Sequence record: NC_106513.1
Direction: 5' to 3' (one strand)
DNA: 64,000 nucleotides
Source of the DNA: Escherichia phage vB_EcoS_ESCO30
Part shown: positions 5,941 to 43,189 of the stretch, one piece after another
How the letters are laid out: each line of letters opens with the position of its first letter
How positions within the stretch are numbered: position 1 is the first letter of the stretch
Notes under the pieces: model-generated
What the model saw: the letters and a program-made list of their open reading frames with translations, nothing else
The model's database searches: none
What the model was told of the DNA's origin: nothing
Position numbers and translations under genes: made by a program

Positions 5941-6083
5941 CTACAATTTTAACTAACTTTGCTTACCCTCGCCATAACTTTCTATCCCTCAACTGAATGA
6001 TAATAGTATATACCTAAGCGGCGAAAATGTCAATAACCACTTTATAATTCCGATATGGTAGATGGGTAGCAAAGGGTTATGTA

Positions 6084-7055
6084 TTAATCGTATACTCTCT
6101 CTACTATGCACGGGATTACACCACCAGCACGAATCACTCGAATCTGGCAACCGATCTCTAGATCAAGAGAGTTAATATAATCAACGTTATTAAGAGTCGC
6201 TTTAACAATTGTAGCATCATCAATAATTACCGGTTCGAAATAACCAACTGGAGTTACTTTACCAGAAGCCCCTACCTGCCATTCAACTTTAGTAAGAGTT
6301 GTAATCTCGCCTTCTTCATCCTCTTTAATAGCGAATGCCCCGCGAGGGAATTTATTAGTCCAGCCTTCTCGGAAGAATTTGTTGTTGTCATTAATACGAA
6401 CAACTTTACCATCCGTCGGAATCCATTTAAAGAAGGAACGCACATTAACAACTGTTAAGAAGTTCTCATTCTCTAGCCAGAGCATATCTTTTAAATACGA
6501 TTCTGTAATACCTACAGATTCAGCAGAACATTGGATACCGTATGCAACGAAGATTAAACCACCTTCCCCGATACGTTGTGCGAAATCATCGCTATCTTTG
6601 AGGTTAATAGCACCAGAGGCAAAGTTACGTTTATTTTCTACTTCTTTTGTAATTAGAACTTCACCAGTGATTTGAGTAGGTACTTTTTGGGAAATCTTTT
6701 TAGGGATGTTCAGCAATCTTACGTTGCTTGTGACATCATTCCCTAGAATACCATTACCACGAGTTAGCGCTTGAACAAATTCGCCATTAATATATAACAG
6801 AGAAATCGCACAACCATCTAACTTATCAGTTTCTACCTGACCTAATGGGTTAAACGGAGGTTTATCTCCACGATTATAATAAACTTTCTGTAAAGAATAC
6901 ATACGATACAGATGTGGAATATCACCCTTAGGCCCGATCTCTTCCTCTAATGGGAAGCGTTTTACCAGGCGATCATATTCTTCATCAGAGATTAAAGACA
7001 TGCCTTGATAATATGCTTCTTGACAGCGTTTAATAAATTCTTTTACATTGGTCAT
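6084..7055 (-). CDS. NAD-dependent DNA ligase, N-terminal adenylation subunit
   Basis: KxDG adenylation motif (TDKLDGCAIS) and OB-fold-like region; separate ORF from C-terminal half. Confidence 0.75.
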   Translation of the reverse strand: MTNVKEFIKRCQEAYYQGMSLISDEEYDRLVKRFPLEEEIGPKGDIPHLYRMYSLQKVYYNRGDKPPFNPLGQVETDKLDGCAISLLYINGEFVQALTRGNGILGNDVTSNVRLLNIPKKISQKVPTQITGEVLITKEVENKRNFASGAINLKDSDDFAQRIGEGGLIFVAYGIQCSAESVGITESYLKDMLWLENENFLTVVNVRSFFKWIPTDGKVVRINDNNKFFREGWTNKFPRGAFAIKEDEEGEITTLTKVEWQVGASGKVTPVGYFEPVIIDDATIVKATLNNVDYINSLDLEIGCQIRVIRAGGVIPCIVERVYD

Positions 7056-31913: not shown

Positions 31914-32084
31914 ATGAAATCAGTTGTAATTATTGGTGTTAACACTCGCGGTATTCGTACTACGAAAACTGTTAAAACTTCTAACGTTGCTGAGATCACT
32001 ACGAACCCTAAAAAGTTTGATTTCGCCAAAGTCTCAGCAGTTATGACAGAACAATCTTTTAACCAAGCGTTAGGAATGAAATAA
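31914..32084 (+). CDS. hypothetical small protein
   Basis: 56-aa ORF below track cut-off; GAGGAAG SD; TAATG overlap with next gene. Confidence 0.4.
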   Translation: MKSVVIIGVNTRGIRTTKTVKTSNVAEITTNPKKFDFAKVSAVMTEQSFNQALGMK

Positions 32085-32527
32085 TGGAAGAGAATATTTT
32101 AGATGTTTTGCGTAGAGCTTTGCAGGATTCTAAGTTTAATGGTTCTGATAAAGAAGTCGCTAAAAGCTATCAGACCATAATCGGGGATCTTCAGCGTATT
32201 GATAAAGATTTCATCACTTCTGAACAATTTGTGTCTTATCTCAAAGCTCAACTAAAAAGCATTAACCAGATGAAAGCTAAACTTCATGGTCAAGATCTTG
32301 ATAGTTATAGCTTGCAGTCCGCTCAGTATGAATACATTCTAAATAAGTGGTTGCAGGAGTATCTGCCTCCTCAGTTATCTGATACTGAGATTCGTAAATA
32401 CTTTGCAGAATTAGTTAAGCTAAACCCTGGAATTACAAAAGGTATGCTGATGAAAGCGATTAAGGAAGAATTTCCTGGGCGTTATGATGGTGGTACTGCT
32501 GCTCAGATTGCTGGCGAATTTAATTAA
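32084..32527 (+). CDS. hypothetical protein with YqeY/GatB-like C-terminal region
   Basis: C-terminal ...ITKGMLMKAIKEEFPGRYDGGTAAQIAGEF resembles YqeY-type domain (low certainty). Confidence 0.45.
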   Translation: MEENILDVLRRALQDSKFNGSDKEVAKSYQTIIGDLQRIDKDFITSEQFVSYLKAQLKSINQMKAKLHGQDLDSYSLQSAQYEYILNKWLQEYLPPQLSDTEIRKYFAELVKLNPGITKGMLMKAIKEEFPGRYDGGTAAQIAGEFN

Positions 32528-32535
32528 AAATTTAT

Positions 32536-32564
32536 TTGCTAAATGCTTATAAATTCTGTATAAT
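32536..32564 (+). promoter_or_regulatory. strong early promoter driving ORF-free RNA region
   Basis: -35 TTGCTA 32536-32541, 17 bp, -10 TATAAT 32559-32564; no SD/ORF downstream. Confidence 0.65.
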
Positions 32565-33361
32565 ATATTCATAAATTAGAGAACAGCGAGCCGATTACGC
32601 TGAGTGCAGAATCCCAACCGGAGCGCATTGAATAGAGTCGGTGGGTTAGTTGGAAAACTAGTACACAGGGGGCGGCAATCCCGGTTAGTGGCTAGAACGT
32701 GTAAAATGAGGCGTCTGAAACCTCTCCCCTAAACTCTTCTCTAATTTACTGATAGTGGGGTGTGGAAATCACTTATGTAGTAACACTGCCGATCTAGTAT
32801 AAACGGTATTATCAAGCCGTAACTGGTGGAAGATGTAGGTTCGAATCCTACGGTCGGTAAGAACTGGATAACTGGTGCTTTTAACGTAAAAGCTTCCGAG
32901 GTTAGTTGCGCACTGCCTAAACCACGCGGTAGTTGGTTCCAGACTAACCAACCAGTCTGCTGAATAGTTTTATTACGATTTAACTATGTCCAGGCATAAA
33001 GAAGAACTTTAGAAGGTATTCTAGGTAGTGAAGTTTTTCCTCCATATCGGAGTAGTTTTTCAAGCTATCCACAAAGTGGGAAATGATGGCATGAGAGATG
33101 CCACTAATGGTGCACAATAGCACAGGTAATTCGCGATAACCCCTGTTGAGTAGCAGCAAAAAGGTGGGGAGTCATGACCCTAACCTAACCGAGTCCTCAG
33201 TATACCGCAGGACATAACCACTAAGTCACCTTGACTTAAACTGGAAAATAATAGACGTTACTGTATTTTGTCTTGAAATACTTAATGAGTGAGACTTATG
33301 ACTCTCCCGGTATCGTCTGTATTTTTAAGAGTTTTTACGAGAGTTCTTAAAAATACTTAAA

Positions 33362-33436
33362 CGGGGTGTAGTCTAAGGGAGAGGCAGGAGTCTTCTAAAT
33401 TCCTTTATGCAGGTTCGAATCCTGTCACCTCGGCCA
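33362..33436 (+). tRNA. tRNA-Arg (anticodon TCT)
   Basis: Hand-folded: acceptor CGGGGTG/CACCTCG, D-stem GTCT/AGGC, anticodon loop CTTCTAA, T-arm GCAGG-TTCGAAT-CCTGT, CCA encoded. Confidence 0.65.
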
Positions 33437-33470: not shown

Positions 33471-34418
33471 ATGTTTAATACTAAAAATATGAAAGAACTG
33501 ACTTCTGAGCAAAAAGTAATTCGCACTATTAAACGTTGGGGTATTGGTGCTGTAGTTGGTTTAGCAGGTTTAATCCTAGCTTTTAATTCATATACTATTG
33601 TTTCTGATGGTACGGTTAAAACCCAAACATTTCTGGGTAAAGTAGATCCTAACCCAGTATTACCTGGTTTCCATCTTGTAAACCCATTTGCATCTTTCGA
33701 TACTTTTAGTACAAAAGATATTGCTGTAAAATTAGATAAACTTCAGGTTCCTAGCCAGGATAAGTTTAAATCCACTGTTGACCTGACTGTTATGTTACAA
33801 TTTGATGGTTCTAAGGCACCGATCAACCGTATTAACGCAGGTACTCAGGATCAGGCGTTAGATAAGTATGTAACTGAGAAATTGCTATCTACTATTCGTG
33901 AATTTGGTAAGTCTGTTCCTAAAGCACAAGATTTGTTTGACGCTAAAATTCAGGCACAATTGCAAACCGCAATTCAACAGGAAGTTGAAGAGTATGCACG
34001 CCCCTATGGTTACACAGTTAAGCAAGTATTCCTTCAGGATATTACATTGCCACCGGTAATTATGGAACAGGTACAGAATACCAAAGTTCGTGAAGAACAA
34101 GTTAATGCTGCGAAAGCTGAATTGGCTCGTGTTGAACAAGAAGCACAGCAGAAGGTTAAACAAGCAGAAGCAGATCGTGAAGCTCGTAACAACCAAGCTA
34201 TTGCAAACGAACGTGATGCAGATGCTAAACTGTACGCAGCTAAGAAAGAAGCTGAAGCTAACGCTGCTCTGCAACGTACTATTACTCCTGAGATGATTCG
34301 TTGGAAACAACTAGAAGTTGAAATGATTCGTGCTCAGAAATATCAAGGTGGTGTACCGCAAACAGTAGTTGGCACTGGTTACGATGGCCAGATGATTATG
34401 GATATGCGTAACAAGTAA
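33471..34418 (+). CDS. SPFH/band-7 domain membrane protein
   Basis: N-terminal TM helix, SPFH-like core and long Ala/Gln/Glu coiled-coil tail. Confidence 0.65.
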   Translation: MFNTKNMKELTSEQKVIRTIKRWGIGAVVGLAGLILAFNSYTIVSDGTVKTQTFLGKVDPNPVLPGFHLVNPFASFDTFSTKDIAVKLDKLQVPSQDKFKSTVDLTVMLQFDGSKAPINRINAGTQDQALDKYVTEKLLSTIREFGKSVPKAQDLFDAKIQAQLQTAIQQEVEEYARPYGYTVKQVFLQDITLPPVIMEQVQNTKVREEQVNAAKAELARVEQEAQQKVKQAEADREARNNQAIANERDADAKLYAAKKEAEANAALQRTITPEMIRWKQLEVEMIRAQKYQGGVPQTVVGTGYDGQMIMDMRNK

Positions 34419-34442
34419 TACCCACATGTAATATTCGAAGTA

Positions 34443-34477
34443 AGCCCTGCGTTCCCTGGAGAGCGCAGGGCTTTTCT
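34443..34477 (+). terminator. rho-independent terminator
   Basis: AGCCCTGCG...CGCAGGGCT 9-bp stem followed by TTTTCT. Confidence 0.75.
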
Positions 34478-37062: not shown

Positions 37063-37140
37063 GGTTCTCAAGCTCATATGGTATGAGCACCCGGCTCATA
37101 ACCGGAAGGTACGTAGGTTCGAATCCTCGGGGAGCCACCA
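37063..37140 (+). tRNA. tRNA with anticodon CAT (Met or Ile-lysidine type)
   Basis: Acceptor GGTTCTC/GGGAGCC, D-stem GCTC/GAGC, anticodon loop CTCATAA, T-loop TTCGAAT but T-stem only 3 bp; CCA encoded. Confidence 0.5.
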
Positions 37141-38601: not shown

Positions 38602-38689
38602 GGGCGTTTATTCCGTAAGTGGTAGCGGAGGGGATTGTAAATCCCTGGTCATTGCGACTCGAGTGGTTCGACTCCATTAACGCCCACCA
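38602..38689 (+). tRNA. tRNA-Tyr (anticodon GTA), class II
   Basis: Acceptor GGGCGTT/AACGCCC perfect, anticodon stem GGGGA/TCCCT with loop TTGTAAA, variable arm hairpin, T-arm AGTGG-TTCGACT-CCATT, CCA encoded. Confidence 0.75.
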
Positions 38690-41441: not shown

Positions 41442-41679
41442 ATTTATATAAATTGATGAGGAGAAATCCTCATCATAGTTCACTAAGGTATTAGCTCGAC
41501 CTAGGACTGGCTGCCAAAAAGCACGATCCCTACTATTTGGGAGAAGTTCTAGATTAGTCCACTAGATTCAGCGGCAACTGAATAGTGTATTGGGTTTGCG
41601 AGATGACGCAGTTCCTTCCGCTCGAAGCGAAGGTGCTGTAGTTACGCCGAGCTAATAGCCTTAGTAAACTAAAGAATTT

Positions 41680-41861: not shown

Positions 41862-42446
41862 ATGCAGTTTGTACCAGTAAAAGATGCACCAGGGTATTTA
41901 GTAAATGAGGCGGGGGATGTGTTCTCTACATTTACTAATAAAGTTTTATCAAGATATATAGTTGATGGATACCCTGCTGTAAAATTACAGATAAATGGTA
42001 AACAAACCTCTGTACTTATACACCGAATTATTTCTCATGTATTTGGGGACTTATATAATCTATTTGACCCTGAATTAGAGGTAGATCATAAGGATAGAGA
42101 TAGACTGAATCTATCTAAAGATAATCTTCAAGTCCTATCAAAAATAGAACATCAGAGGAAAACTAATAAAGATAATGGGTGGTCTGACAGTAGAGTACCT
42201 TGCCCCCTATGTGGGAGTCTAATGCTTCAGAGATCTGTAACATGTACAAATTGTAAGCCAAAACCTACAGGAAGGTTGATAAAACCAGAATTGTCTTTAG
42301 ACGACATAACTGAAAAGGTTTTATTAATGGGGTGGGTTAAGGCAGCTAAAGAGTTAGAAGTATCAGAGTCCACTTTGCGCAGGAGGTATACTAAACTAAC
42401 TGGATTAAGCCCAAAAGTATTAACAGAACAACGGAAAAGCAAATAG
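41862..42446 (+). CDS. HNH endonuclease
   Basis: HRIISHVFG...EVDHKDRDRLNLSKDNL HNH motif; 3' end overlaps tRNA-Ser 5' end. Confidence 0.7.
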   Translation: MQFVPVKDAPGYLVNEAGDVFSTFTNKVLSRYIVDGYPAVKLQINGKQTSVLIHRIISHVFGDLYNLFDPELEVDHKDRDRLNLSKDNLQVLSKIEHQRKTNKDNGWSDSRVPCPLCGSLMLQRSVTCTNCKPKPTGRLIKPELSLDDITEKVLLMGWVKAAKELEVSESTLRRRYTKLTGLSPKVLTEQRKSK

Positions 42447-42526
42447 ACTGGCGACTAAACCCGATTGGAAATCGGTTGAGTAATAGCAATATTGCCTTAT
42501 GGGTTCAACTCCCATCTTTTCCGCCA
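42433..42526 (+). tRNA. tRNA-Ser (anticodon GGA), class II
   Basis: Acceptor GGAAAAG/CTTTTCC perfect, anticodon stem CCGA/TCGG with loop TTGGAAA, long variable arm, T-arm ATGGG-TTCAACT-CCCAT, CCA encoded. Confidence 0.65.
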
Positions 42527-42822: not shown

Positions 42823-43189
42823 AAATTCTTGGAATATGCCGGAATTGGTAGACGGGACTGCCCAATAGGTTTACTAGGAACATCCACTCCTAGAAATATA
42901 CCTTAAAAGCGGTTGAGTTAAATGGTCTAACTCATGAAGGTTCAAGTCCTTCTGCTTCTTGATACATCTATGGCTCAAAGTGTAACGGTGCTATTTGATG
43001 CTCTTGGAAAGACTTTCCCGACAGGCGTTCGGGGGTAAGCTTCTGAGGCTAGAATAGAAGAGTTTCTGAGAGCCGCCACAATTGAAAATTCGTACTCGTC
43101 TTGAGCTGCGTGCAATAGGAGATAACTTGATTAGTATTCTAGAACATGCTAATTGAGGATGGTTTCGCTAACCCTGCGAGTTTTCAATT

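What the first reader, a model, noticed from the sequence alone, without database searches (positions are those of the whole stretch)
32536..33361. Promoter-driven ~800 nt ORF-free region with a tRNA-like 3' minihelix
A strong promoter (32536-32564) is followed by about 800 nt without any SD-ATG ORF. It contains GCCGATC...GTAGG-TTCGAAT-CCTAC-GGTCGGT (32787-32858), a good acceptor plus T-arm with no foldable D or anticodon arm, then inverted repeats such as GTTGGTT...AACCAAC (around 32920-32945), before tRNA-Arg at 33362. This suggests a processed precursor carrying non-tRNA structured RNAs or a tRNA pseudogene.
Basis: seen in the sequence. Interest (0 to 1): 0.5.

Follow-up and report, generated by a model that had tools for sequence, protein, structure and literature searches.

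The report
Phage T5 stable RNA "RNAX" gene
The promoter-driven, ORF-free 0.8 kb stretch is the already-annotated but functionally unknown "RNAX" stable-RNA gene of T5-like phages. Here it proves to be a large, modular, conserved structured RNA whose tRNA-shaped part is a built-in non-decoding domain, not a decaying tRNA gene.

Summary
A near-consensus sigma-70 promoter (32536-32564) is followed by about 790 nt with no conserved ORF, a tRNA-like element (32788-32859), several hairpins, and then tRNA-Arg(UCU) at 33362.

The window is a T5-like phage. This locus is the gene rnaX ("RNAX, stable RNA with unknown functions") annotated in the BF23 and DT57C GenBank records. T5 annotates the tRNA-like element as a pseudo-tRNA. 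So the feature itself is already known.

What the analysis adds:
- Homologous ORF-free RNAs of 0.65-1.3 kb sit behind the same type of promoter in five Demerecviridae genera.
- Sequence islands stay 80-100% identical where synonymous sites of neighbouring genes have fallen to about 40%.
- Two domains show strong covariation: 17 of 41 and 20 of 47 pairs have compensatory changes.
- The tRNA-like element sits on top of a covarying 12-bp helix. It keeps the acceptor arm, T arm and D/T-loop elbow, but in no lineage has a 7-nt anticodon loop.
- An invariant palindromic hairpin loop (AGUCAUGA) and a 17-bp terminal hairpin just before the tRNA-Arg 5' end are conserved.

Most likely this is a trans-acting structured ncRNA released by RNase P. 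Its function is still unknown. Its nearest analogues are the GOLLD and ROOL RNAs, but it is not a member of either family.

The parts
32536..32564 (+). Early sigma-70 promoter: -35 TTGCTA (32536-41), 17-nt spacer, -10 TATAAT (32559-64). Predicted start near A32571; the BF23 annotation maps the RNA start to about 32578.
   Evidence: The start-site position is inferred by analogy with T5 early promoters (own knowledge).
32571..33361 (+). RNAX non-coding RNA (rnaX). The 3' end is the RNase P site at the 5' end of tRNA-Arg.
   Evidence: 97% identical to the annotated BF23 rnaX and 98.8% to chee24. No conserved ORF. G+C 0.42-0.475 against 0.33-0.36 in the flanks. + strand folding z = -2.35 against -1.04 for the - strand.
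32572..32748 (+). Domain 1. The 5'-terminal helix P1 (32572-82 with 32738-48) closes optional 'module A' (32583-32737), which contains hairpins 32584-88/32598-602 and 32622-31/32638-47.
   Evidence: T5 and DT57C lack module A and keep P1 as a plain 13-bp hairpin. DU_PP_V keeps the helix with two compensatory changes (by eye).
32755..32762 (+). Single-stranded G-rich motif GUGGGGUG, invariant in 4 of the 5 genera sampled (Proteus phage L109 has GGGUGUG); partner unknown.
32764..32897 (+). Domain 2, a three-way junction: Pb (32764-67/32894-97), the 12-bp helix Pa (32768-81/32863-76, three 4-bp blocks separated by C.C and G.G) and hairpin Pc (32877-82/32888-93).
   Evidence: 90.6% of cells paired against 30-42% with slid partners; 17 pairs changed on both sides; 0 of 500 shuffles reach this; Pa is 100% paired. 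A covariance model finds it in DU_PP_V (84 bits) and a Proteus phage (64 bits), neither of which was used for training. The single-sequence MFE gives the same fold.
32788..32859 (+). Non-decoding tRNA-like domain at the tip of Pa: acceptor 32788-94/32852-58, D stem 32797-99/32810-12, short 'anticodon' hairpin 32815-18/32825-28 with a 6-nt loop, and T arm 32835-39/32847-51 with loop UUCGAAU.
   Evidence: U8, A14, G18G19, A15:U48 and U54-A58 are all present (read from the sequence).
32933..32953 (+).
33076..33221 (+). 3' core domain closed by GUGG/CCAC (33076-79/33218-21). Internal helices: 33088-92/33098-102, 33124-26/33142-44 and 33193-97/33209-13.
   Evidence: 96% paired against 32-51% with slid partners; 20 of 47 pairs changed on both sides.
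33166..33181 (+). Hairpin GGGG/CCCU presenting the 8-nt loop AGUCAUGA (invariant in the 17-sequence 3'-domain alignment), which contains the palindrome UCAUGA (GUCAUGAC with the closing pair). AAGUCAUGAC recurs in all five genera. Candidate kissing-loop or protein-binding site.
   Evidence: The role is inferred.
33223..33246 (+). Hairpin AAGUCA-CCU-UGACUU followed by AAACUGGAA, conserved in Tequintavirus and Epseptimavirus (diverged in Pectobacterium phage DU_PP_V).
33319..33356 (+). Terminal 17-bp hairpin with a UACG loop, ending 5 nt before the tRNA-Arg 5' end. About 93% identical across subfamilies.
   Evidence: Only G.U to A-U or G-C changes are seen.
33362..33436 (+). tRNA-Arg(UCU) with encoded CCA. 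Its RNase P site defines the RNAX 3' end.
33471..34473 (+). Downstream SPFH/Band-7 ORF (33471-34418) and the first intrinsic terminator (34442-34473). Together these show that RNAX heads an operon.

Best explanation
The region is rnaX, a phage gene for a large (about 790 nt) structured non-coding RNA.

Shown or annotated:
- It is transcribed from a strong early promoter as the first element of an operon: RNAX, tRNA-Arg, Band-7 ORF.
- It has no conserved ORF.
- It folds into at least four modules whose helices covary.
- It is conserved across five genera of Demerecviridae.

Inferred biogenesis:
- RNase P cleavage at the 5' end of tRNA-Arg releases RNAX.
- The 5'-terminal helix P1 and the 17-bp UACG-capped 3' hairpin protect it from 5'-end-dependent and 3' exonucleolytic decay. 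This would explain why it was recorded as a 'stable RNA'.

Inferred function (least certain):
- It acts in trans as an RNA scaffold or mimic.
- A tRNA-shaped domain with an intact elbow and acceptor arm, but no anticodon loop, is displayed on a conserved three-way junction. It could engage factors that recognise tRNA shape.
- An invariant palindromic hairpin loop could mediate self-association or bind a dimeric protein.
- It is dispensable in the laboratory, so it most likely gives an accessory advantage, such as handling of the tRNA pool or countering host responses.
For: Identity with the annotated rnaX and its promoter. T5 pseudo-tRNA annotation.

Operon layout: there is no terminator before 34442.

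Non-coding.

RNA-level selection:
- Domain 2: 90.6% paired, 17 compensatory pairs, 0 of 500 shuffles, slid controls 30-42%.
- 3' domain: 96% paired, 20 compensatory pairs, slid controls 32-51%.
- Many strand-specific G.U pairs occur in these helices.

Breadth: Tequintavirus, Epseptimavirus, Sugarlandvirus, Hongcheonvirus and Novosibvirus. Covariance-model hits of 84 and 64 bits fall on sequences outside the training set.

Selection relative to neutral sites: 4-fold-degenerate sites of neighbouring genes are 0.40-0.42 identical to Sugarlandvirus and DU_PP_V. The RNAX islands and terminal hairpin stay 80-100% identical.

Retention: about as many database phages carry RNAX (524 records) as carry the neighbouring endolysin at 60% identity or more (518 records).

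tRNA-like domain: compensatory changes occur in the acceptor, D, T and short AC stems.

Composition and folding: higher G+C than the flanks and a + strand folding bias.
Against: - I found no transcript-mapping data or publication on RNAX. 'Stable RNA' rests on the GenBank annotation alone.
- The whole locus is missing from the viable T5 st0 deletion mutant.
- The middle region and module A are swapped, lost or interrupted by HNH or other ORFs between lineages.
- In three Epseptimavirus loci sampled (L029, L046, L050) and in the Proteus phage, a plain hairpin replaces the tRNA-like apex. The tRNA shape is therefore not universally required.
- RNase P might also cut at the internal tRNA-like domain, so the mature species may be fragments rather than one 790-nt RNA.
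- The alignments contain few independent lineages, so the covariation counts are inflated by shared ancestry.
Confidence: 0.7

Rival explanations
1. RNAX is a cis-acting leader or processing scaffold. In this view it is a long structured 5' region whose job is to stabilise the operon transcript, direct RNase P or RNase III processing, and tune the output of tRNA-Arg and the downstream ORFs. It would have no function of its own once cut off.
For: There is no terminator between RNAX and the downstream genes. RNAX always heads the transcription unit, before tRNA-Arg directly or before one or two ORFs and then tRNA-Arg. The most conserved piece is the hairpin immediately before the tRNA 5' end or the next Shine-Dalgarno sequence.
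Against: A length of 0.65-1.3 kb with at least four independently conserved domains is far more than any known leader needs. That includes a tRNA mimic on a three-way junction and an invariant palindromic loop 180 nt from the junction. It is annotated as a stable species. In Sugarlandvirus it is separated from tRNA-Arg by two ORFs. The two readings are not mutually exclusive.
Confidence: 0.17
2. The region is a graveyard of decayed tRNA genes and recombination scars in the hypervariable tRNA region. It is transcribed only because it lies behind a promoter, and the tRNA-like element is a true pseudogene.
For: T5 and RefSeq flag the element as a pseudo-tRNA or tRNA-OTHER. The region is mosaic, with indels and homing-endonuclease insertions. 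It is deleted in T5 st0.
Against: Only one tRNA-like hit appears even at E<=10. Compensatory substitutions maintain helices inside and outside the tRNA-like element. Islands stay conserved at distances where synonymous sites are about 40% identical. The non-canonical anticodon arm is already present in a different subfamily, which does not fit ongoing decay.
Confidence: 0.05
3. The region encodes one or more small proteins, as several genome annotations assume.
For: IrisVonRoten, SB13, the K7_rec Klebsiella phages and others annotate 3-6 'hypothetical protein' CDSs here.
Against: In the window there is no ATG-initiated ORF on the + strand, and all ORFs are 60 aa or less. Every ORF is broken by stops or frameshifts in other genera even where the nucleotides are conserved. 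One lies in module A, which T5 lacks. Another overlaps the T arm.
Confidence: 0.03
4. The conservation reflects a DNA-level element such as a replication origin, nick site or protein-binding palindrome, rather than an RNA.
For: GTCATGAC is a DNA palindrome. T5 genomes carry site-specific nicks and poorly defined origins (own knowledge). A nick is annotated about 1 kb downstream.
Against: The helices are kept by G.U pairs, which would be A.C mismatches on the other strand. Folding is biased to the + strand. The region has a promoter and a tRNA context.
Confidence: 0.03

Closest known systems
rnaX ('RNAX, stable RNA with unknown functions') of phages BF23 (AJ604530 / NC_042564) and DT57C (NC_027356), and the pseudo-tRNA annotated in T5 (AY587007)
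   Same: Same locus: promoter P16-17, then RNAX, then tRNA-Arg. The window is 97% identical to BF23, with the same 784-nt extent of 32578-33361.
   Different: Nothing of substance; the window carries the long BF23-type form, with module A. The records give no structure, family breadth or function. Those are what this analysis adds.
GOLLD and ROOL large 'ornate' RNAs of phages and prophages
   Same: Size of 0.6-0.8 kb or more. Phage-encoded and located in tRNA islands. Unknown function and non-essential. GOLLD has a conserved 3' part, a variable 5' part and sometimes tRNAs inside a variable linker (PMC12286853). RNAX likewise has a variable 5' module, a conserved 3' core and an embedded tRNA-like domain.
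   Different: No Rfam match to either family, even at E<=10. The sequence and helices are unrelated. Oligomerisation of RNAX is only a guess from one palindromic loop.
Bacterial and phage Y RNAs of the YrlA type (tRNA-mimicking Ro60/Rsr partners)
   Same: A non-decoding tRNA-like module with a conserved T arm and D arm is carried on a stem. D. radiodurans Yrn1 has a 6-nt 'anticodon' loop. A GNCGAA-type motif lies 5' of the module; GUCGAA or GCCGAA stands at the base of Domain 2 in four of the five genera. M. smegmatis YrlA, which has a 7-bp acceptor stem, is cut by RNase P (PMC4201824).
   Different: YrlA is 80-130 nt and its tRNA module is permuted, with a closed acceptor-like stem-loop. It lies within 4 kb of a Ro60/TROVE gene. 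RNAX is 790 nt with normal tRNA arm order. No TROVE gene is annotated nearby. The window itself has GUGGAA, not GNCGAA.
Small stable RNAs of phage tRNA clusters: T4 species 1 and 2 (own knowledge), and T5 RNA I, RNA III, RNA1 and RNA2H (annotated in AY692264)
   Same: Non-tRNA RNAs co-transcribed with phage tRNAs. Their ends are presumably defined by tRNA processing enzymes. Their function has been unknown for decades. The T5 ones are also present in this window.
   Different: They are 100-170 nt. RNAX is five to eight times larger and has no sequence similarity to them or to anything else in the window.

Membership tests
T5/BF23 rnaX locus | Lies between the early promoter P16-17 and tRNA-Arg(UCU), with high nucleotide identity to the annotated misc_RNA | tested here: met
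   97.0% identity over 806 nt to BF23 rnaX, 98.6-98.8% to chee24, same flanking genes.
T5/BF23 rnaX locus | Accumulates as a stable RNA in infected cells | not testable with these tools
   This rests only on the GenBank note. No paper was found.
Canonical tRNA (Rfam RF00005) | Covariance-model score above the gathering threshold | tested here: met
   36.8 bits against 29. ARAGORN calls tRNA-Ser(act).
Canonical tRNA (Rfam RF00005) | 5-bp anticodon stem with a 7-nt loop presenting an anticodon | tested here: not met
   Infernal skips 18 nt here. The conserved form is a 3-4 bp stem with a 6-nt loop. Sugarlandvirus has a 6+5 bp extended arm and DU_PP_V a 5-6 bp stem with a 3-5 nt loop.
Canonical tRNA (Rfam RF00005) | Free acceptor end (mature 5' end, 3' CCA) | tested here: inconclusive
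   No CCA is encoded (A-AGA follows). The flanks pair with each other in the 12-bp helix Pa. G1.U72 becomes G1xA72 and U5xU68 is mismatched in most lineages. Processing was not testable.
GOLLD / ROOL | Match to the Rfam covariance models | tested here: not met
   Nothing but tRNA in E-value scans of the window locus and of the Sugarlandvirus, Epseptimavirus and Proteus loci.
GOLLD / ROOL | Large covarying multi-domain RNA encoded by phages next to tRNA genes | tested here: met
   This is a functional resemblance only.
GOLLD / ROOL | Homo-oligomeric cage assembly | not testable with these tools
   Only an invariant palindromic loop (33170-77) hints at self-pairing.
YrlA / bacterial Y RNA | Encoded within about 4 kb of a Ro60 (TROVE) gene on the same strand | tested here: not met
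   Annotated neighbours are endolysin, a weak YqeY-like ORF, a Band-7 protein, primase and small ORFs.
YrlA / bacterial Y RNA | GNCGAAN0-1G motif 5' of the tRNA-like module | tested here: inconclusive
   GUCGAA or GCCGAA occurs in Epseptimavirus, Sugarlandvirus, DU_PP_V and the Proteus phage, but without the trailing G. The window has GUGGAA, and these bases pair in helix Pb.
YrlA / bacterial Y RNA | Permuted tRNA-like module (T arm, closed acceptor-like stem-loop, D arm), 80-130 nt overall | tested here: not met
   RNAX has the normal arm order: acceptor, D, AC, T, acceptor. It is 790 nt long.

The most novel reading that the evidence does not exclude
RNAX is the founding member of an undescribed family of large 'ornate' phage RNAs, absent from Rfam and specific to T5-like phages (Demerecviridae). 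In this reading it works like GOLLD or ROOL. It would be an abundant RNA-only or RNA-scaffold particle that self-associates through the invariant palindromic loop AGUCAUGA. It would display a non-decoding tRNA mimic to capture or divert host factors that read tRNA shape, such as processing or modification enzymes, tRNA-directed defence nucleases, or Ro60-type quality control in Salmonella and Klebsiella.
Probability: 0.2. Interest if true: 0.8.

Novelty: already known. Interest (0 to 1): 0.55.

Why it matters
T5 is a classical model phage, yet its largest non-coding RNA has sat in GenBank as 'stable RNA with unknown functions'. I could find no literature on it, no Rfam family and no structural model.

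This analysis shows that it is a conserved, covarying, modular RNA of 0.65-1.3 kb present in five Demerecviridae genera. That places it in the small set of very large structured bacterial or phage RNAs (GOLLD, ROOL, OLE, HEARO) whose biology is still open, and in a genetically tractable E. coli phage.

It also corrects a routine annotation error in two ways. The 'pseudo-tRNA', 'tRNA-Sec' or 'tRNA-Ser' calls are a structural domain of RNAX. The small 'hypothetical proteins' annotated here are spurious.

The practical consequences for phage biology depend on a function that remains to be found.

Tried and rejected
- **Rfam.** Gathering-threshold and E-value scans of the window and of homologous loci found only tRNA. 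The weak SpF41, Hrs13 and other hits are far below threshold.
- **Literature.** Searches for RNAX, BF23 or T5 stable RNA, Tequintavirus transcriptomes and Demerecviridae ncRNA found nothing on this RNA.
- **Host origin.** No blastn match in 5,426 E. coli genomes.
- **Module A as a mobile element.** It occurs only at this locus, once per genome.
- **Paralogues in the window.** None.
- **More lineages.**
  - IMG/VR and metagenome pattern scans returned only known genera, some recombinants and chance hits.
  - The 15-base pattern scan of bacterial genomes gave hits in taxonomically unrelated genomes, as expected by chance; they were not examined further.
- **Link to the upstream 'tRNA amidotransferase / YqeY' ORF.**
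  - The Pfam match is sub-threshold (25.4 against 27 bits).
  - The gene is not adjacent in Sugarlandvirus and was not detected in Hongcheonvirus, so I dropped it as evidence.
- **SD-like GGGGUG followed by AUG-UAG (32775-80) as a start-stop mini-ORF.** The AUG lies in the covarying helix Pa and is absent in DU_PP_V, so I rejected it.
- **Loop-loop pairing of the AC hexaloop GUAAC with GUUAC at 33257-61.** It is not conserved in Epseptimavirus, so I rejected it.
- **Band-7 codon comparison with L051.** I used wrong coordinates and discarded the result; it was redone with L052.
Full report
**1. Observation**

- TTGCTA-17-TATAAT lies at 32536-32564 and matches 10 of 12 consensus positions.
- From there to tRNA-Arg(UCU) at 33362-33436, the + strand carries only GTG/TTG-initiated ORFs of 45 aa or less. 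The - strand carries ORFs of 60 aa or less.
- The acceptor and T-arm motif is at 32788-32858, with discriminator A32859.
- The GTTGGTT/AACCAAC repeat is at 32933-39/32947-53.
- One detail is wrong. tRNA software does call the element: ARAGORN gives tRNA-Ser(act) and Infernal scores 36.8 bits against a gathering score of 29.
- However, Infernal has to skip 18 nt where the anticodon arm should be.

**2. What the locus is**

The window is a T5-like phage. It is 98.8% identical over this stretch to phages chee24 and IrisVonRoten.
- In the BF23 tRNA-region record (NC_042564 / AJ604530) the homologous 784 nt, corresponding to window 32578-33361, are annotated as misc_RNA rnaX: 'RNAX, stable RNA with unknown functions'. 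Promoter P16-17 precedes it and tRNA-Arg follows.
- DT57C carries the same annotation on a shorter 636-nt form.
- T5 (AY587007) annotates the tRNA-like element as a pseudo-tRNA. Other records call it tRNA-OTHER, tRNA-Ser or tRNA-Sec.
- The whole locus lies inside the deletion of the viable T5 st0 mutant. It is therefore dispensable in the laboratory.
- I found no paper that describes RNAX.
- The first intrinsic terminator downstream is at 34442-34473, after the Band-7 ORF. RNAX is therefore the first element of an operon.

**3. Not coding, not host-derived, not repeated**
- Every ORF in the region is broken by stops or frameshifts in other genera, even where the nucleotide sequence is conserved. 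One ORF lies in a module that T5 lacks.
- No E. coli genome matches the region.
- Nothing else in the window resembles it.

**4. Breadth and selection**

blastn finds the region in 524 phage records. This is about the number that carry the neighbouring endolysin at 60% identity or more (518 records).

Homologues exist in five genera:
- Tequintavirus, in a long form and a short form that lacks 32583-32731;
- Epseptimavirus;
- Sugarlandvirus of Klebsiella, with a 1.3-kb ORF-free stretch;
- Hongcheonvirus (Pectobacterium phage DU_PP_V, subfamily Mccorquodalevirinae);
- Novosibvirus (Proteus phage M4H10_20).

In each case a T5-type promoter is followed by 0.65-1.3 kb without conserved ORFs, ending at or near tRNA-Arg.

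The RNA is mosaic.
- Conserved islands lie at 32568-32606, 32753-32897, 32998-33070, 33076-33250 and 33310-33361.
- These islands alternate with segments that are replaced, lost or interrupted. Interruptions include an HNH endonuclease gene and a 169-aa ORF placed at domain boundaries.

Four-fold-degenerate sites of neighbouring genes give a neutral benchmark.
- They are 0.61-0.77 identical between the window and Epseptimavirus.
- They are only 0.40-0.42 identical to Sugarlandvirus and DU_PP_V.
- At those distances the islands remain 80-100% identical, and the terminal hairpin is about 93% identical.

G+C is 0.42-0.475 in RNAX against 0.33-0.36 in the flanks.

**5. Structure**

*Domain 2 (32764-32897)* is a three-way junction with three helices:
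- Pb, GGAA/UUCC;
- Pa, a 12-bp helix (32768-81/32863-76) made of three 4-bp blocks separated by C.C and G.G mismatches;
- Pc, a hairpin (32877-93).

The evidence for this fold:
- On 26 distinct sequences, 90.6% of cells pair, against 30-42% when partners are slid.
- 17 of 41 pairs show changes on both sides, and no shuffle of 500 reaches these values.
- Pa is 100% paired, with 5 compensatory pairs.
- The single-sequence MFE reproduces the fold.
- A covariance model built from this alignment finds the domain in DU_PP_V (84 bits, E about 1e-21) and in the Proteus phage (64 bits, E about 1e-15). Neither was in the training set. Ordinary tRNAs score 25 bits or less.

*The tRNA-like element* is the apex of Pa.
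- It keeps a 7-bp acceptor stem. In most lineages this stem has recurrent G1.U72 or G1xA72 and U5xU68 irregularities.
- It keeps a D arm with G18G19, an A15:U48 Levitt pair and a canonical T arm and loop.
- Compensatory changes occur in all stems.
- The 'anticodon arm' is a 3-4 bp stem with a 6-nt loop in Tequintavirus and Epseptimavirus.
- It is a 6+5 bp extended arm in some Sugarlandvirus, and a 5-6 bp stem with a tiny loop in DU_PP_V.
- In no lineage is there a 7-nt anticodon loop. The 'tRNA-Sec(tca)' and 'tRNA-Ser(act)' calls are therefore artefacts.
- In three Epseptimavirus loci sampled (L029, L046, L050) and in the Proteus phage, a plain hairpin replaces the apex while the junction is kept.

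*The 3' core (33076-33221)* is closed by GUGG/CCAC and followed by further hairpins.
- On 17 sequences, 96% of cells pair, against 32-51% with slid partners.
- 20 of 47 pairs are compensatory.
- The core contains a short hairpin (33166-81) whose 8-nt loop AGUCAUGA is invariant in this 17-sequence alignment. AAGUCAUGAC, including the palindrome GUCAUGAC, is present in all five genera.

*The two ends.*
- At the 5' end, helix P1 (32572-82/32738-48) closes module A. In T5 and DT57C, module A is absent and P1 is a simple terminal hairpin.
- At the 3' end, a 17-bp hairpin with a UACG loop (33319-56) stops 5 nt before the tRNA-Arg 5' end. It varies only by G.U to A-U or G-C changes.

*Strand.* The many G.U pairs and the stronger folding bias of the + strand (z = -2.35 against -1.04) indicate that selection acts on the + strand RNA, not on the DNA.

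**6. How it most likely works**

Shown or annotated: a strong early promoter, a non-coding transcript, a conserved modular fold, and co-transcription with tRNA-Arg.

Inferred from established E. coli RNA metabolism:
- RNase P cleavage at 33361/33362 creates the RNAX 3' end.
- The adjacent long hairpin blocks 3' exonucleases.
- The base-paired 5' end hinders 5'-end-dependent RNase E attack.
- Together these give a long-lived RNA, which fits the 'stable RNA' label.
- RNase P may also cut at G32788. In that case helix Pa could still hold the halves together.

The function is not established. My best guess, with low confidence, is a trans-acting scaffold or mimic.
- The tRNA domain keeps exactly the parts read by shape-recognising factors (elbow, acceptor arm, T arm). 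It discards the part needed for decoding.
- The invariant palindromic loop is the kind of element that mediates kissing-loop dimerisation in other RNAs (own knowledge, for example the HIV-1 DIS).
- Retention in essentially all natural isolates, combined with dispensability in the laboratory, fits an accessory role such as host takeover or counter-defence.

**7. Rivals**
- A purely cis-acting leader or processing scaffold is the main alternative, and it is not exclusive of the main model.
- A 'tRNA graveyard' is contradicted by the covariation and by the age of the non-canonical anticodon arm.
- Small-protein coding is contradicted.
- A DNA-level element is contradicted by the strand-specific G.U pairs.

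**8. Comparison with known families**

The locus is a member of the annotated rnaX locus.
- It is not a canonical tRNA, because the anticodon arm fails.
- It resembles GOLLD and ROOL in size, phage and tRNA-island context, variable 5' and conserved 3' organisation, embedded tRNA and unknown function (PMC12286853). It does not match their models.
- It shares with YrlA-type Y RNAs a non-decoding tRNA mimic on a stem and a GNCGAA-like motif (PMC4201824). It differs from them in size and arm topology, and it lacks a Ro60 neighbour.
- It is five to eight times larger than the other stable RNAs of phage tRNA clusters. Four of the T5 ones are also in this window.

**9. Verdict**

The feature itself is already annotated, so its novelty is 'already known'.

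The added value is evidence that RNAX is a conserved, covarying, modular large ncRNA family of Demerecviridae. As far as I could find, the family has no published description and no Rfam entry. The so-called pseudo-tRNA is one of its structural domains.

The limits of this analysis:
- no expression data;
- few independent lineages behind the covariation counts;
- alignments partly made by hand;
- no model for the middle region;
- no functional evidence.

Noticed in passing
window 41489-41660; 42828-42971; 42972-43078; 43083-43188: Four more non-tRNA 'stable RNAs' annotated in T5 st0 (rna2H, rna1, rnaI, rnaIII) are present in the window at 94-100% identity. They sit directly upstream of tRNA-Ala and tRNA-His. 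Like RNAX, they have no known function.
   Followed up: partly
window 37063-37137; 38602-38689; 42433-42526: The tRNA callers disagree. Rfam finds a tRNA at 37063-37137 (40.3 bits) that ARAGORN misses. ARAGORN's tRNA-Tyr (38602) and tRNA-Ser(gga) (42433) do not reach the Rfam gathering score.
   Followed up: no
L030 1755-2237; L026 2375-2884 (also L052, L053, L088, L090): In Epseptimavirus, an HNH endonuclease gene sits between the promoter and the RNAX core. A conserved 169-aa ORF with no Pfam match sits between the terminal hairpin and tRNA-Arg. Insertions therefore respect the domain boundaries of the RNA.
   Followed up: partly
L109 5647-6450 (Proteus phage M4H10_20): The RNAX homologue has its modules in a different order. 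The AAGTCATGAC palindrome (around 6188) lies upstream of the Domain 2 junction (6245-6362). A separate acceptor and T-arm minihelix (5949-6012) lies elsewhere and is not scored as a tRNA by Rfam.
   Followed up: partly
L093 and L101 (human-gut metagenome contigs), L099, L108: These are natural recombinants inside the tRNA-like domain. L093 and L101 join a T5-type 5' half to an Epseptimavirus-type 3' half, which leaves a T-stem mismatch. L099 is otherwise Tequintavirus-type but carries the Sugarlandvirus-type extended 'anticodon' arm. L108 has a D-arm deletion.
   Followed up: no
window 32528-32582 and other sites in each T5-like genome (for example L001 107-156 and 947-997): The roughly 50-nt promoter block is repeated at 78-88% identity in front of several early transcription units. 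It is annotated 'repeat c' in T5 (AY587007).
   Followed up: no
window 32084-32527: The ORF just upstream is variously annotated 'tRNA amidotransferase', 'recombination-related exonuclease' or 'YqeY-like'. It matches Pfam YqeY only below threshold (25.4 against 27 bits, C-terminal part only). It is not adjacent to RNAX in Sugarlandvirus.
   Followed up: partly
window 32757-32780: An SD-like GGGGUG is followed 12 nt later by AUG-UAG, a start-stop pair, in most lineages. The AUG lies in the covarying helix Pa and is missing in DU_PP_V, so this is probably coincidental.
   Followed up: yes
window 32941-32959: The loop CCAGACU of the 32933-53 hairpin is complementary to AGUCUG at 32954-59. This could form an H-type pseudoknot in Tequintavirus. 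It is not conserved in the Epseptimavirus relatives that share the hairpin.
   Followed up: partly
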